Part shown: one piece after another, positions 5,352-23,066 of the stretch
Layout: the number at the start of each line of letters is the position of its first letter
How positions within the stretch are numbered: position 1 is the first letter of the stretch
Source of the DNA: a virus
IMG/VR virus record: IMGVR_UViG_3300025132_007932
Location: 1 to 64,000 of that record
Reading direction: 5' to 3' (one strand)
Length of the DNA stretch: 64,000 nt
The notes under the pieces: model-generated
What the model was told of the DNA's origin: nothing
What the model saw: only the letters and a program-made list of their open reading frames with translations
Database searches by the model: none
Program-made: the position numbers and the translations under genes

Positions 5352-7784
5352 ATGCTAAATGATGAGCAAATTCTATTAAAAACAGCCAATCTTCTGGATA
5401 CTTTGCAAGAAAAGTGCTGGGATGGATATAAACAAGTCGGAATGAAGAAGAAAAGTGGCAAAAATGTGCCAAATTGTGTCCCTGTTAATGAAAAAGTGCT
5501 CCGAGAAGTAACCGAAGACGAGATGCGAGTGCTTGAAGACGTGTTGGACGACCTAAATCCAGCAAATTTACCCTTAAATGACCTTTTTAGCAACAAAATG
5601 CGCGTTGTTATACCGTTTCCGACCACTGATCCAAGTTCAGATCTTGGAAAGTTCTCAGAATTCTTCAGATCTCAAGAGTATGATGTAGATTGGGAGAAAG
5701 GGATGGTGTATGCCGAGCGTGATCTGCGCACATCAGACGATTTTCTTGATACTTTAATGGGTGGATCTGAACCAAAGAAGAAAACTAAGAAGATTCAGAT
5801 GAAAATCGGCAAGCTTTTCTCCAAATTGGCTGATTTAAGCAAAAGAAAAGACGAAATATACCAAAAAGTCTATAAACACATGGATAATGCCAACTATAAG
5901 CTAGCAGATGGTGGACCAGTTAACACACCACGAAGAGTTACCGGAAAAATGCTGAAAGCAGCGCTCGATGAAAAAGAATACGAGAATTTTCAGAGAATTA
6001 ACACTCAAATTAACTTATATGTCGTAAATCCGGGTGTCGCAGGCCCAGCAGGCTATGATTTAACCGATTTAGCCACTAAATACGGCGAATATTGGAAAAA
6101 GAACGCTGGATTCATCAAAAAAGAGATAAATAGCCTTGATAATGACAAATATTCCATTATTATCACTCGACATCCAATAGATGTACTCAGAATGAGTGAT
6201 TTTGACACAATTACTTCTTGTCATTCTCCAGCTAGTCGTCAAAATGCCTATCAATCCTACTATAAATGCGCTGTAGCCGAGGCTCAGGGCCATGGAGCCG
6301 TAGCATACGTGGTTGAGACAGAAGACCTTCTGAGCGCCACTGATACGGGTAATATTGATAGTGCAGAGCAAGAAATTCAAGAAGGCGAGATATTTGCTGA
6401 CGATAAACGTCCATTTAGCGGTGATATTGAGCCAATTTCTCGCACACGCATCCGTCATGTTAGATATTATGAAGGTGACGAGCCTCCAAAGCGTTGGGAT
6501 GATGGACAAGACGTTGGAATGCCCGAAAAGCGCGTCTATGGTGTCGATATTCCCGGTTTAACTAATAGAGTTACTGATTGGGCGAGATCAAACCAAGAAG
6601 AAGTCATAGCAAATATGCCTAAAAATGATAATGGCATTATTGATCTTAATAAATTTATGATTTTTGGTGGCTCTTACGAAGATACTGCAAATGCTGCTGG
6701 TCGTGAAAGATTAATGAGACAGTTATTGGGTGCACAAGCTCTCGTTAGCGGCAATATGAAACAAAACACAGACACTGAAGATGATCTGGATGCTAATTTA
6801 GTTGGCGACATTATCGCACAATACGAAGGGCAGTGCGAAGAGATAATGAATGAGTACAATAATAGGATGGCTCAAACATATTCTGACTATGAAGTTGGAG
6901 ATGATGGTGGTGAGGGTGCTTATATCAGACCCTTCGCAGCATTTATTGCGAAGTGGCCGGTTGATGAGTGGAAAAGACTACCCGGTAATCAAGAAGAAGT
7001 TGTGTGGAACTCTGTCGATGAGGTGATTGCGATATATGGTGATATATTTGAAGACTCCAACAACTATACACCTGTTATTCGTCGTGTTCGCGAAGAAATA
7101 CACTTGACTATGAAGATTAACTTTGAGCATCCTGACATTTATGGTAACGGTTATATGGCAATGCCAGAAGAATACAGAGACGCGCTTGAAAACATTGATG
7201 TAATAATCGACGACAGAAGAGATGCTTTTGAGGCTGTTCTCACTGATTACTTCAAGCGTGAAGGACAAATGGAAGGTGGTACATATATGAATCTTGCTAT
7301 GTCCATCGAAGACGGAGCACTTACCTCATATGAATGGGATCTAGAAACTGATGGAGAATACTCTGAATCATATGAATCGTCTGCACGATATACACACTAC
7401 TATGATCCAGAAGACTTAGGATTGGGGATTGAGGTGCTAAAACAGATTGTTGATTCTCGCGACTTTAGAATTGAATTGAGAAAACAACTTTTAGAAGCGC
7501 CAAGAAAAGAAATAAATACTCAATATTATTTATCTATGAATGCAATAACAGTAGACCAGAGCGGAGAGGTCGCATTTACCGCTGTATTCACGATTAACGC
7601 TGATGAGCCTGACCTTATGGCTGAGTTGTTTCAAGAGCTTGTAGAGGGTGAAATGGACGATGAAGATAACCTTAATGTGATATTTAATAGAGTATTAGCT
7701 CAGTTTGTTAATTCTCGCCGGCCATCGCATATGCAAACAAACGAAAACCTCGTAAAAACGTGGAAAGGATTTCTAAACTCATGA
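5352..7784 (+). CDS. large hypothetical protein (810 aa), putative virion-internal
   Basis: N-terminal CWDGYKQVGMKKK...VPNCVP module flanked by LQE/LRE; central RHPIDVLRMS...SCH; C-terminal LVKTWKGFLNS. Confidence 0.65.
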   Translation: MLNDEQILLKTANLLDTLQEKCWDGYKQVGMKKKSGKNVPNCVPVNEKVLREVTEDEMRVLEDVLDDLNPANLPLNDLFSNKMRVVIPFPTTDPSSDLGKFSEFFRSQEYDVDWEKGMVYAERDLRTSDDFLDTLMGGSEPKKKTKKIQMKIGKLFSKLADLSKRKDEIYQKVYKHMDNANYKLADGGPVNTPRRVTGKMLKAALDEKEYENFQRINTQINLYVVNPGVAGPAGYDLTDLATKYGEYWKKNAGFIKKEINSLDNDKYSIIITRHPIDVLRMSDFDTITSCHSPASRQNAYQSYYKCAVAEAQGHGAVAYVVETEDLLSATDTGNIDSAEQEIQEGEIFADDKRPFSGDIEPISRTRIRHVRYYEGDEPPKRWDDGQDVGMPEKRVYGVDIPGLTNRVTDWARSNQEEVIANMPKNDNGIIDLNKFMIFGGSYEDTANAAGRERLMRQLLGAQALVSGNMKQNTDTEDDLDANLVGDIIAQYEGQCEEIMNEYNNRMAQTYSDYEVGDDGGEGAYIRPFAAFIAKWPVDEWKRLPGNQEEVVWNSVDEVIAIYGDIFEDSNNYTPVIRRVREEIHLTMKINFEHPDIYGNGYMAMPEEYRDALENIDVIIDDRRDAFEAVLTDYFKREGQMEGGTYMNLAMSIEDGALTSYEWDLETDGEYSESYESSARYTHYYDPEDLGLGIEVLKQIVDSRDFRIELRKQLLEAPRKEINTQYYLSMNAITVDQSGEVAFTAVFTINADEPDLMAELFQELVEGEMDDEDNLNVIFNRVLAQFVNSRRPSHMQTNENLVKTWKGFLNS

Positions 7785-8023: not shown

Positions 8024-8146
8024 ATGGAGCTAATTATAATCGGATTTGCTTGCTTAAGTCTAGCTGCTTTTATAAGTACCAAAGATTTACCGGATGATAA
8101 ACCGGCAGAGGCAGAATCTGTACAAATAAAGGAGGAGTCAGAATGA
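8024..8146 (+). CDS. small membrane protein (40 aa, not in ORF track)
   Basis: MELIIIGFACLSLAAFISTKDLPDDKPAEAESVQIKEESE; fills the gap and its stop overlaps the next ATG. Confidence 0.5.
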   Translation: MELIIIGFACLSLAAFISTKDLPDDKPAEAESVQIKEESE

Positions 8147-8385
8147 AATACATTTTAATATTTTTACTATCGAGTGTTGCATATGCAAACGACGAGGAGG
8201 AGCCTCGCGTTGTTTATAAACAAAAAACTGAAATTGATTTTGAAAGTGTAGAGGTACAAGGAGAATTGGTCAAACCACAAGGATCTTTGTTGTTGGAAAG
8301 AAAAAGAGCACAATTTAATTCAATGGTCTGGATAAGATCTGACTTTGACGATGAGATGGACAAAACTGTTCAAGAGGTTAAATAA
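8143..8385 (+). CDS. cglF: CglF/GltF-like (adventurous gliding motility) secreted protein
   Basis: Signal peptide, then VVYKQKTEIDFESVEVQGELVKPQG...FNSMVWIRSDFDDEM, matching my recollection of the myxobacterial CglF pattern (KTxIDF..V.GEL.KP.G...F..LI..R.NF..E). Confidence 0.7.
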   Translation: MKYILIFLLSSVAYANDEEEPRVVYKQKTEIDFESVEVQGELVKPQGSLLLERKRAQFNSMVWIRSDFDDEMDKTVQEVK

Positions 8386-8738
8386 TGTTTCCTTTATTTT
8401 TTGAAAACAGTAAAATTCCAGTATGGTTATCTAAGCTGGCTCCAATTGAAATAAATGCGCTAAGTTTTTTTATTTTTGTTTTCTCGCGAGGAGAATTAGA
8501 TGAAAGAGTAAGAAGACATGAAACGATTCACTACAAACAGCAAGTTGAAATGTTGTTTATTTTTCAATGGATTATGTATGCTTATTTTCATTTAAACGGG
8601 CTGCTTTCGGGACTTAGCGGTTCTGACGCTTACTATGTTAATCCTTTTGAGCTTGAGGCATATGATAATGACGAAAAAGAAAACTATTTAAATGAAAGAA
8701 AAGCATATGCTTGGATAAAATACTGGAAAGAAATGTGA
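8385..8738 (+). CDS. HExxH zincin-like membrane-associated protein
   Basis: RRHETIH...NPFELEAY. Confidence 0.65.
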   Translation: MFPLFFENSKIPVWLSKLAPIEINALSFFIFVFSRGELDERVRRHETIHYKQQVEMLFIFQWIMYAYFHLNGLLSGLSGSDAYYVNPFELEAYDNDEKENYLNERKAYAWIKYWKEM

Positions 8739-18559: not shown

Positions 18560-18768
18560 TGTGGAAAATTTATAAATGGAATGGCCACTATATTCAAGGC
18601 GATTTTGTTAGTAAGCACACTAGTGAAGATGCTGCATTGAAAAAAGCAGCTAAAGAAATAGATTTCACTTTTGCAGAAAAGGTGAAAAGAGGAAAAGAAA
18701 CTTTAATTTGGCTAGATGGTACAGACCATACGCCAGTTGGGGTTATTGTTAAAAAATCTCGGGGGTGA
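18559..18768 (+). CDS. hypothetical protein
   Basis: TAATG coupling; stop overlaps the tmRNA 5' end. Confidence 0.55.
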   Translation: MWKIYKWNGHYIQGDFVSKHTSEDAALKKAAKEIDFTFAEKVKRGKETLIWLDGTDHTPVGVIVKKSRG

Positions 18769-19096
18769 TTTAGGCTTCGACGTGGTATTGAATGAGTCGA
18801 GTGCAAGCAGGTTAGACACGGCCTTAACAGTTCAAATAATTTAGTTGCAAATAACAACTTACACTTCGAACAGCGCTTAGCCGCTTAATAGGGAGGCCGA
18901 TTAGAGCCTTCTATCCAATCTAGTCAAAACAACAGACAAGTTGTAAAAATCAAAAAACTTATCGCAACAGGATGGTAAGCGATATTTTAAAACCATCTAT
19001 CTTTGTCAGTTTATGATATAGAAACTGAATAAGCTTGTGAATGACTTAACTTTGGATTTATTACGGACGCGGGTTCGACTCCCGCCGCCTCCACCA
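18761..19096 (+). ncRNA. ssrA: tmRNA, tag peptide ANNNLHFEQRLAA (18847-18888)
   Basis: 5' GGGGGTG pairs with 3' CGCCTCC-ACCA including G3:U70; GGTTCGACTCC T-arm; tag ORF ends LAA followed by TAA TAG. Confidence 0.95.
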
Positions 19097-22989: not shown

Positions 22990-23066
22990 TGGGGTGAAGC
23001 GCCATAGGCAGGTGCACCGGGTTGTTACCCCGGCCGTTGTTGGTTCGAATCCAACTGCCCCAGCCA
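22990..23066 (+). tRNA. tRNA-Asn(GTT)
   Basis: Acceptor TGGGGTG/TGCCCCA, G73, encoded CCA; anticodon arm CCGGG-TTGTTAC-CCCGG; T-arm GTTGG-TTCGAAT-CCAAC. Confidence 0.9.

What the first reader, a model, noticed from the sequence alone, without database searches (positions are those of the whole stretch)
8143..8385. Phage-encoded homolog of the myxobacterial gliding protein CglF/GltF
Seen: signal peptide plus KTEIDFESVEVQGELVKPQG...FNSMVWIRSDFDDEM. From recall, this matches CglF/GltF, a small exported component of the Agl-Glt gliding machinery of Myxococcus and Bdellovibrio. Inference: it points to the host lineage. It may also let the phage alter host motility or occlude an outer-membrane receptor (superinfection exclusion). 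I do not recall motility-machine genes being described in phages.
Basis: partly seen in the sequence, partly recalled or inferred. Interest (0 to 1): 0.75.

Follow-up and report, generated by a model that had tools for sequence, protein, structure and literature searches.

The report
Phage copy of GltF machine linker
A large uncultured marine phage carries its own well-preserved, exported copy of GltF, the small periplasmic linker of the myxobacterial gliding-type (Glt/Nfs) envelope machine, which suggests the phage plugs a part of its own into that host machine and hints at marine Myxococcota as hosts.

Summary
ORF 8143-8385 (+) encodes an 80-aa protein with a Sec-type signal peptide and a 60-aa C-terminal domain. 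It matches NCBIfam CglF/GltF (E 8.8e-14, 51 bits, below the 90-bit equivalog cut-off).

The low score is normal: only 3 of 301 sampled genomes in the relevant phylum pass the cut-off. The closest bacterial relatives (68-73% identical) sit between gltE and gltG in glt-type clusters of marine Myxococcota MAGs.

The window is a phage: an IMG/VR record, one coding strand, with baseplate, PhoH, primase and SbcCD genes. The gene is alone. No other Glt part was found in this record or in four complete 185-203 kb relatives.

It occurs in 60 IMG/VR contigs, under strong purifying selection (dN/dS about 0.08), with every bacterial-invariant residue kept.

Best reading: a working linker that docks on host GltG and GltC. 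Whether it sustains or jams the machine is unknown. A docking prediction on GltG's C-terminal domain gave weak support only.

The host inference is plausible but unproven: the tmRNA tag is similar, but GC is 40% against 52-64%.

This scan has reported the same thing on at least six other phage genomes. I found no published description.

The parts
8143..8385 (+). gltF/cglF-like gene, 80 aa plus stop
   Evidence: ORF list and sequence. NF033764 E 8.8e-14. 68-73% identity to GltF orthologues that sit in glt clusters of bacterial MAGs.
8130..8135 (+). Shine-Dalgarno AGGAGG, 7 nt upstream of the ATG
   Evidence: Read from the sequence.
8143..8187 (+). Sec-type signal peptide, residues 1-15, predicted cleavage after AYA
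   Evidence: Sequence features. The AF2 model has a helix at residues 3-9. Homologues all have a hydrophobic N-terminus and A-x-A. M. xanthus GltF is listed as signal-peptide positive (PMC3169522).
8215..8283 (+). Conserved core YK..TEIDFE...G.L.KP.G, residues 25-47. Candidate beta-strand segment that would pair with the GltG C-terminal domain.
   Evidence: Invariant in 80 bacterial and about 60 viral copies. The role is inferred from the published AlphaFold model of M. xanthus GltF.
8347..8379 (+). C-terminal helix, residues 69-79. Candidate GltC-binding helix.
   Evidence: The AF2 model has a helix at 69-79. A C-terminal GltF helix is predicted to insert into a GltC crevice (PMC11761067).
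8024..8146 (+). 40-aa ORF with one hydrophobic helix, overlapping the gltF start by 4 nt. Context only.
   Evidence: Found next to gltF in only 6 of 60 viral loci, so it is not an obligate partner.
8385..8738 (+). 117-aa ORF with a HETIH (HExxH) motif, start overlapping the gltF stop. Context only.
   Evidence: phrog_15610 'protease' E 2.6e-20. Found in only 4 of 60 viral loci.

Best explanation
The gene is a phage-borne, functional copy of GltF, the small exported linker of the myxobacterial Glt/Nfs-type envelope machine.

Shown:
- It is a true GltF homologue.
- It lies in a phage, without any other Glt part.
- It is kept under strong purifying selection, with all bacterial-invariant residues intact.

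Inferred:
- After Sec export and signal-peptide cleavage, the ~65-aa, largely unfolded mature peptide docks on host proteins as bacterial GltF is predicted to.
- Its conserved TEIDFE...KP segment would add a strand to the TonB-like C-terminal domain of GltG. Its C-terminal helix would sit in the GltC crevice.
- In this way the phage would place its own linker between the inner-membrane motor side and the outer-membrane complex.

Both predicted contact elements are conserved as tightly as in bacteria. I therefore favour a working replacement that keeps the machine coupled while host gene expression fails (about 40%) over deliberate jamming (about 30%). The direction of the effect is not shown.
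For: - Family match: NF033764 E 8.8e-14.
- Sequence match: gapless alignment over residues 13-78 to CglFs scoring 88-101 bits on that model.
- Closest cellular relatives: 68-73% identical, flanked by GltC, a TPR protein, GltE, GltG and CglE/GltH. GltG is adjacent in 78 of 80 bacterial loci.
- The sub-threshold score is typical. 226 of 301 genomes of that phylum match, only 3 exceed 90 bits, and positional orthologues score 55-59 bits.
- Phage setting: IMG/VR virus record; PhoH, glycosyltransferases, baseplate wedge, primase, SbcCD.
- Viral context: 60 of 60 viral loci have no glt neighbour. 30 of them share the window's 810-aa gene and 27 its 87-aa and 228-aa genes.
- Lone gene: no GltG, GltC, CglE, AgmX-tail or TonB_C in four relatives rated 100% complete by CheckV. 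No homologue of GltC, the TPR protein, GltE, GltG or CglE, and no AgmX-tail or TonB_C, in the window's own 98-kb record.
- Selection: dN 0.027 and dS 0.56 against the nearest relative; median dN/dS 0.078 over 149 pairs.
- All bacterial-invariant positions are kept.
- Shape: the monomer model is extended with a C-terminal helix at 69-79, as published for GltF.
- Domain fusions: CglF-like modules lie directly before AgmX/PglI tails in two VWA proteins. This fits a GltF to TonB-like-domain contact.
- Docking test on the GltG C-terminal domain of L063: weak support, score 0.42, best of 3 controls 0.01. The mark was reached by 58 of 80 solved complexes and 2 of 110 mismatched pairs. At 0.60 or under it was reached by only 7 of those 80 and by both mismatches. 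The runs agree in at least 93% of contacts, and partner pLDDT is at least 51. My own alignments were used, so the counts hold only roughly.
Against: - No experiment, and no solved structure of any GltF complex. The binding mode comes from an AlphaFold-only paper, and my docking pass is of the weak kind.
- The host is unknown. The GltG used for docking is a stand-in from a MAG with 61% GC, against 39.6% for the phage.
- The window's own subclade has FNSMVWIR where bacteria have FNPLIKLR, including loss of a Pro that is invariant in bacteria.
- The CglF-like module also occurs in non-Glt proteins (VWA/VIT, MuiA type), so the target need not be Glt.
- Nothing distinguishes 'sustains' from 'jams'.
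Confidence: 0.6

Rival explanations
1. Interference. The phage floods the periplasm with linker so that GltG and GltC are each occupied by separate molecules (an excess-adaptor effect), or it uses a subtly altered linker. Either would uncouple the machine. The result would be an immobilised cell or changed display of the surface complex, for example to exclude superinfecting phages.
For: - It is a lone subunit with a strong ribosome-binding site and no other machine parts.
- The window's subclade changes the FNPLIKLR stretch.
- Phage proteins that shut down host surface motility organelles to block superinfection are known for type IV pili (my own knowledge, not checked here).
Against: - An inhibitor needs only one interface, yet both predicted contact elements and all invariant residues are kept, under dN/dS of about 0.08.
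- GltF is periplasmic, so it cannot itself mask a surface receptor.
Confidence: 0.3
2. The module is a general peptide that binds TonB-like C-terminal domains. In the phage it targets some other host envelope protein, not the Glt/Nfs machine.
For: CglF-like modules occur inside VWA/VIT, MuiA-type and other long proteins, twice next to an AgmX/PglI tail.
Against: - The phage protein is 68-73% identical over its whole mature length to positional GltFs.
- The embedded modules are much more distant: 24-42 bits on NF033764.
- The phages encode no TonB-like domain of their own.
Confidence: 0.08
3. Not a phage gene: a bacterial contig mis-called as viral, or a decaying passenger gene picked up by chance.
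For: - The record is only 52% complete, and no capsid or terminase gene was identified in it.
- Two loci binned into bacterial MAGs lack glt neighbours.
Against: - One coding strand over 98 kb; baseplate, PhoH, primase and SbcCD genes.
- Relatives are rated 100% complete by CheckV at 185-203 kb.
- No viral locus has a glt neighbour (0 of 60), whereas GltG sits next to the bacterial copy in 78 of 80 loci.
- Strong purifying selection across 149 pairs.
Confidence: 0.02

Closest known systems
GltF = CglF of Myxococcus xanthus (MXAN_4868; NCBIfam NF033764)
   Same: - Small exported protein with a signal peptide, no TM segment and no Pfam domain.
- Same conserved C-terminal domain; gapless alignment to members at or near the cut-off.
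- Extended chain with a C-terminal helix.
   Different: - Encoded by a phage, alone, outside any glt cluster.
- 51 bits, below the 90-bit equivalog cut-off.
- Gene GC of 36%.
- Function untested.
Positional GltF of uncultured marine Myxococcota MAGs (loci L062-L065, L067: UBA2957, XB_MAG53, UBA796 and relatives)
   Same: - 62-73% identity over residues 8-80, including the acidic linker and the C-terminal DFDDEMDKSV.EVK helix.
- Similar NF033764 scores of 55-59 bits.
   Different: - The bacterial copies lie between gltE and gltG, at 52-62% GC.
- The window's subclade has FNSMVWIR instead of FNPLIKLR.
NfsF, the GltF paralogue of the Nfs sporulation machine of M. xanthus
   Same: [quoted passage not shown] The C-D-E-F-G-H clusters of the MAGs are contiguous in the same way.
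   Different: I had no NfsF sequence or model, so Glt type and Nfs type cannot be told apart here. GltJ, which Nfs lacks, was not clearly found in the closest MAGs.
Phage-borne copies of single host machine subunits, such as cyanophage psbA/D1 (analogy from my own knowledge)
   Same: One host-derived subunit of a multi-protein machine, carried alone by a phage and kept under purifying selection.
   Different: Here the machine is an envelope motor complex, not photosynthesis. Whether the copy sustains or disturbs it is unknown.

Membership tests
GltF/CglF (NCBIfam NF033764, equivalog) | Score at or above the curated cut-off of 90 bits | tested here: not met
   51.3 bits. The cut-off is narrow, though: only 3 of 301 genomes of the phylum pass it, and GltFs sitting between gltE and gltG score 55-59 bits.
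GltF/CglF (broad family) | Small exported protein with an N-terminal Sec signal peptide and no membrane anchor | tested here: met
   80 aa. Hydrophobic N-terminus with an AYA cleavage motif and no Cys. Judged by eye, as no predictor was available. Matches the published description.
GltF/CglF (broad family) | Conserved C-terminal domain alignable end to end with accepted CglF proteins | tested here: met
   Gapless phmmer alignments over residues 13-78 to L142-L146, E 4.6e-15 to 2.2e-11. All bacterial-invariant columns are kept.
GltF/CglF (broad family) | Largely unstructured chain ending in a C-terminal helix | tested here: met
   AF2 model: pTM 0.20, helices only at 3-9 (signal peptide) and 69-79. 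Published model.
GltF/CglF (broad family) | Gene located between gltE and gltG in a glt/nfs-type cluster | tested here: not met
   No glt neighbour in the window or in any of 60 viral loci. GltG is adjacent in 78 of 80 bacterial loci.
GltF/CglF (broad family) | Binds the GltG TonB-like C-terminal domain and GltC | tested here: inconclusive
   GltG C-terminal domain only: weak support, score 0.42 against best control 0.01. The mark was reached by 58 of 80 solved complexes and 2 of 110 mismatched pairs. At 0.60 or under it was reached by only 7 of the 80 and by both mismatches. GltC was not tested.
GltF/CglF (broad family) | Required for gliding and for focal-adhesion cluster assembly | not testable with these tools
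   Needs genetics in a host with the machine (describes the M. xanthus assays).

The most novel reading that the evidence does not exclude
A widespread group of about 185-240 kb uncultured marine phages infects small-genome marine Myxococcota. During infection these phages take control of the host's envelope-spanning Glt/Nfs-type motor by supplying just its smallest linker. This would be the first viral gene for a bacterial focal-adhesion-type machine. It would also give a molecular handle that ties an abundant phage group to an uncultured host group.
Probability: 0.35. Interest if true: 0.7.

Novelty: new member of a known kind. Interest (0 to 1): 0.55.

Why it matters
- Biology of the machine: GltF is the least understood part of the Agl-Glt machine. 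A natural, minimal viral version kept under selection says which residues matter. It also offers a ready-made probe for the predicted, never-measured GltF-GltG-GltC bridge.
- Ecology: the gene is found in 60 IMG/VR contigs and in some 290 protein clusters from ocean metagenomes. It is one of very few clues to the hosts of this large-phage group, and to phages of marine Myxococcota generally.
- Phage-host interaction: if the phage sustains or blocks an envelope motor, that is a new kind of host take-over target.
- Limit on novelty: the same gene has already been reported by this scan on related phages.

Tried and rejected
- Pfam and PHROGs gave no hit for the ORF.
- The phage GenBank collection gave no match to the region by megablast or to the protein by tblastn.
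- The broad alignment A1 was too diverse for the genome scan; A2 was used.
- A call with 'of' set to a locus id failed.
- Multiple independent gains by phages: the free tree needed 5 label changes. The AU test does not reject one viral clade, and the constrained tree was even better (lnL +16.3, p-AU 0.72). I therefore make no claim of repeated capture. What is shown is only that the gene sits at different genome positions in related phages.
- tmRNA nucleotide identity is about 49% to all four MAG tmRNAs, which is uninformative.
- Expression: no RNA holder listed.
- Promoter and terminator scan: nothing above the shuffled expectation.
- Cultured relatives are only about 30% identical in the baseplate wedge protein (Microcystis phage Mel-JY01, Flavobacterium immuto phages). 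This gives no host clue.
- Literature searches for a phage GltF/CglF found nothing relevant.
- No fold search was run, because the monomer model is an extended chain (pTM 0.20).
- The 40-aa and 117-aa neighbours were considered as partners. I rejected them as obligate partners because they accompany gltF in only 4-6 of 60 viral loci.

Full report
**1. The observation**

The ORF is real.

- AGGAGG lies 7 nt before the start.
- The start overlaps the stop of a 40-aa ORF (ATGA).
- The stop overlaps the start of a 117-aa ORF (TAATG).
- The N-terminus MKYILIFLLSSVAYA|ND looks like a Sec signal peptide without a lipobox. I judged this from the sequence, as no predictor was available.

Pfam and PHROGs give nothing. 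NCBIfam NF033764 (adventurous gliding motility protein CglF) matches residues 15-78 to profile positions 24-87, with E 8.8e-14 and 51.3 bits against a cut-off of 90.

**2. Is it really GltF?**

The sub-threshold score needed explaining, and three results explain it.

- *Closest relatives sit in glt clusters.* A scan of one genome per prokaryotic species found 138 cellular relatives. The closest are 68-73% identical over residues 8-80 and lie in MAGs labelled Myxococcota or Deltaproteobacteria (UBA2957, XB_MAG53, UBA796). In L065 and L063 the gene lies in the order GltC, TPR protein, GltE, CglF-like, GltG, CglE/GltH.
- *The pattern holds across loci.* Across all 80 kept bacterial loci, GltG is adjacent in 78, GltE in 63 and CglE in 62.
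- *The cut-off is narrow.* These positional orthologues themselves score only 55-59 bits. In a sample of 301 genomes from that phylum, 226 match the model but only 3 pass 90 bits. The equivalog cut-off is therefore narrow, and the phage score is ordinary for the broad family.

The phage protein also aligns without gaps over residues 13-78 to the few CglFs that reach or approach the cut-off.

Its AlphaFold2 model is an extended chain (pTM 0.20) with helices only at the signal peptide and at residues 69-79. That is how GltF is described in the 2025 structural-model paper: largely disordered with a C-terminal helix (PMC11761067).

**3. Is it in a phage?**

Yes, on the following evidence.

- The window is the first 64 kb of a 98,424-bp IMG/VR virus record that CheckV rates 52% complete.
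- All sizeable ORFs are on one strand.
- It encodes PhoH, glycosyltransferases, an aminotransferase, a baseplate wedge protein, a tape-measure-like protein, a primase and an SbcCD fusion, plus a tmRNA and a tRNA-Asn.
- The baseplate wedge protein is about 30% identical, over its full length, to those of Microcystis phage Mel-JY01 and the Flavobacterium immuto myoviruses.

Sixty IMG/VR contigs carry a relative of the gene. None has a glt neighbour.

- Thirty of them (L002-L031) share the window's local order: 348-aa, 810-aa, 87-aa, variable small genes, gltF, variable genes, 228-aa.
- Other carriers are related phages, sharing PhoH, SbcCD and other genes at 40-60% identity, but they hold gltF elsewhere in the genome.

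Four relatives rated 100% complete (185-203 kb) have no GltG, GltC, CglE, AgmX/PglI tail or TonB_C domain. The window's own 98-kb record has no homologue of the L065 GltC, TPR, GltE, GltG or CglE proteins, and no AgmX/PglI tail or TonB_C domain. The phage therefore carries only the linker, and any partner must be a host protein.

**4. Is it functional?**

- Against its nearest relative (L002), dN is 0.027 and dS is 0.56. Over 149 pairs with unsaturated dS, the median dN/dS is 0.078.
- Every position that is invariant in the 80 bacterial copies is kept in the window's phage clade: Y25, K26, T29-F33, G40, L42, K44, P45, F58, N59, R65.
- The one notable departure is in the window's own subclade, which has FNSMVWIR where bacteria have FNPLIKLR. 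This includes loss of an otherwise invariant Pro.
- The gene's GC is 36%, like the phage (39.6%) and unlike the bacterial copies (58% in L063). So it is not a recent capture.

**5. How it probably works**

*Published facts.* M. xanthus gltF (MXAN_4868, 89 aa, signal peptide, no Pfam domain) is needed for gliding. GltF-mCherry sits at focal-adhesion clusters, and GltD clusters vanish without it. In 2011 it was seen only in Myxococcales and Bdellovibrionales (PMC3169522).

*Published prediction.* The 2025 AlphaFold-based model, which has no biochemistry behind it, has a GltF strand pairing with the sheet of the TonB-like C-terminal domain of GltG. It has the GltF C-terminal helix lying in a GltC crevice. 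In that model GltF bridges the outer-membrane complex to the inner-membrane side (PMC11761067).

*What I found here.*
- The phage protein keeps both elements.
- CglF-like modules occur directly before AgmX/PglI C-terminal domains in two long VWA proteins. This fusion fits such a contact.
- I tested docking of the mature phage protein on the GltG C-terminal domain of the closest bacterial cluster. The result was weak support: score 0.42, best of three controls 0.01. The mark was reached by 58 of 80 solved complexes and 2 of 110 mismatched pairs. At 0.60 or under it was reached by only 7 of the 80 and by both mismatches. The runs agree in at least 93% of contacts, and partner pLDDT is at least 51. 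I used my own alignments, so the counts hold only roughly.

*My reading.* This nudges my odds upward and no more. The phage exports a working linker that docks on host GltG and GltC. Both contact elements are conserved as tightly as in bacteria, whereas an inhibitor would need only one. I therefore lean towards replacement or maintenance of a labile host part (about 40%) over jamming or superinfection exclusion (about 30%). Nothing here decides between them.

**6. Host and the word 'gliding'**

*For a marine Myxococcota host.*
- The closest GltFs are in such MAGs.
- The phage tmRNA tag, ANNNLHFEQRLAA with a double stop, resembles the tags of those same MAGs: ANNNNHFAAAAVA and ANNNDNFAAAAVA, both 13 residues with double stops. 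An Oligoflexia-labelled MAG has ANNNKHFALAA, and a more distant genome has ANSEMALAA.

*Against, or neutral.*
- tmRNA nucleotide identity is about 49% to all of them.
- The bacterial loci have 48-70% GC, against 33-56% for the viral ones.
- There is no direct link between phage and host.
- Large GC gaps between big phages and their hosts do occur (phiKZ, from my own knowledge), so the GC mismatch weakens the inference without refuting it.

*Glt or Nfs.* The MAG clusters are contiguous like the sporulation paralogue nfsA-H, which lacks GltI, GltJ and GltK. GltJ is not clearly present in the closest MAGs. It is therefore safer to speak of a Glt/Nfs-type envelope machine than of gliding.

**7. 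Origin in phages**

The free tree placed viral copies in several groups. A tree with all 61 viral copies held together is at least as good (p-AU 0.72). One old capture followed by spread and relocation is therefore not excluded, and I make no claim of repeated capture.

**8. Novelty**

I found no paper describing a phage GltF/CglF. This scan, however, has already reported the same gene on at least six related phage genomes, with similar conclusions. I re-tested those conclusions independently on this window.

It is a new member of a known kind: a host-derived single subunit carried by a phage. The target machine is unusual.

Noticed in passing
window 18761-19096: Phage-encoded tmRNA (RF00023, 112 bits) with tag ANNNLHFEQRLAA and a double stop. 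The tag start and length resemble those of the MAGs that hold the closest GltF, but nucleotide identity is only about 49%.
   Followed up: partly
window 22990-23066: tRNA-Asn (GTT) in the phage.
   Followed up: no
window 8385-8738: 117-aa ORF with hydrophobic stretches and a HETIH (HExxH) motif, matching phrog_15610 'protease' (E 2.6e-20). It is translationally coupled to gltF but present in only 4 of 60 viral loci.
   Followed up: partly
window 5352-7784: The 810-aa protein starts with a CWDGYKQVGMKKKSGKNVPNCVP-type module that matches the internal or C-terminal parts of eight unrelated PHROGs of unknown function. This gene is the most constant upstream neighbour of gltF in this phage lineage (30 of 60 loci).
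   Followed up: no
window 8735, 9757, 10446: Three consecutive, otherwise unrelated genes begin with nearly the same MKL(I/L)LENWR... N-terminus. This is visible in the translations and was also noted earlier in the scan.
   Followed up: partly
proteins P0185, P0192, P0193, P0148, P0155, P0163: The CglF-like module also occurs inside long proteins: VIT/VWA 'sortase target'-like, MuiA/DUF4139 and unannotated 970-1345-aa proteins. Twice it is directly followed by an AgmX/PglI C-terminal (TonB-like) domain. This is a possible fusion clue to the GltF-GltG contact.
   Followed up: partly
L105 (4.4 kb, 48% GC) and L115: Two loci from bacterial MAGs carry the gene without GltG next to it. L105 clusters with the viral copies and is probably a phage contig binned into a MAG.
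   Followed up: partly
L064, L069-L071, L106, L109, L110, L115 and others: Many MAG contigs with complete glt-type clusters and about 60% GC carry NCBI labels such as Enterobacterales, Klebsiella pneumoniae or Rickettsiales. These labels look wrong.
   Followed up: no
L039, L042 (next to PhoH-region homologues); L037, L044, L045, L050 (next to an SbcCD homologue): In related large phages, gltF sits at different genome positions from the window's, so the gene has moved within this phage group.
   Followed up: partly
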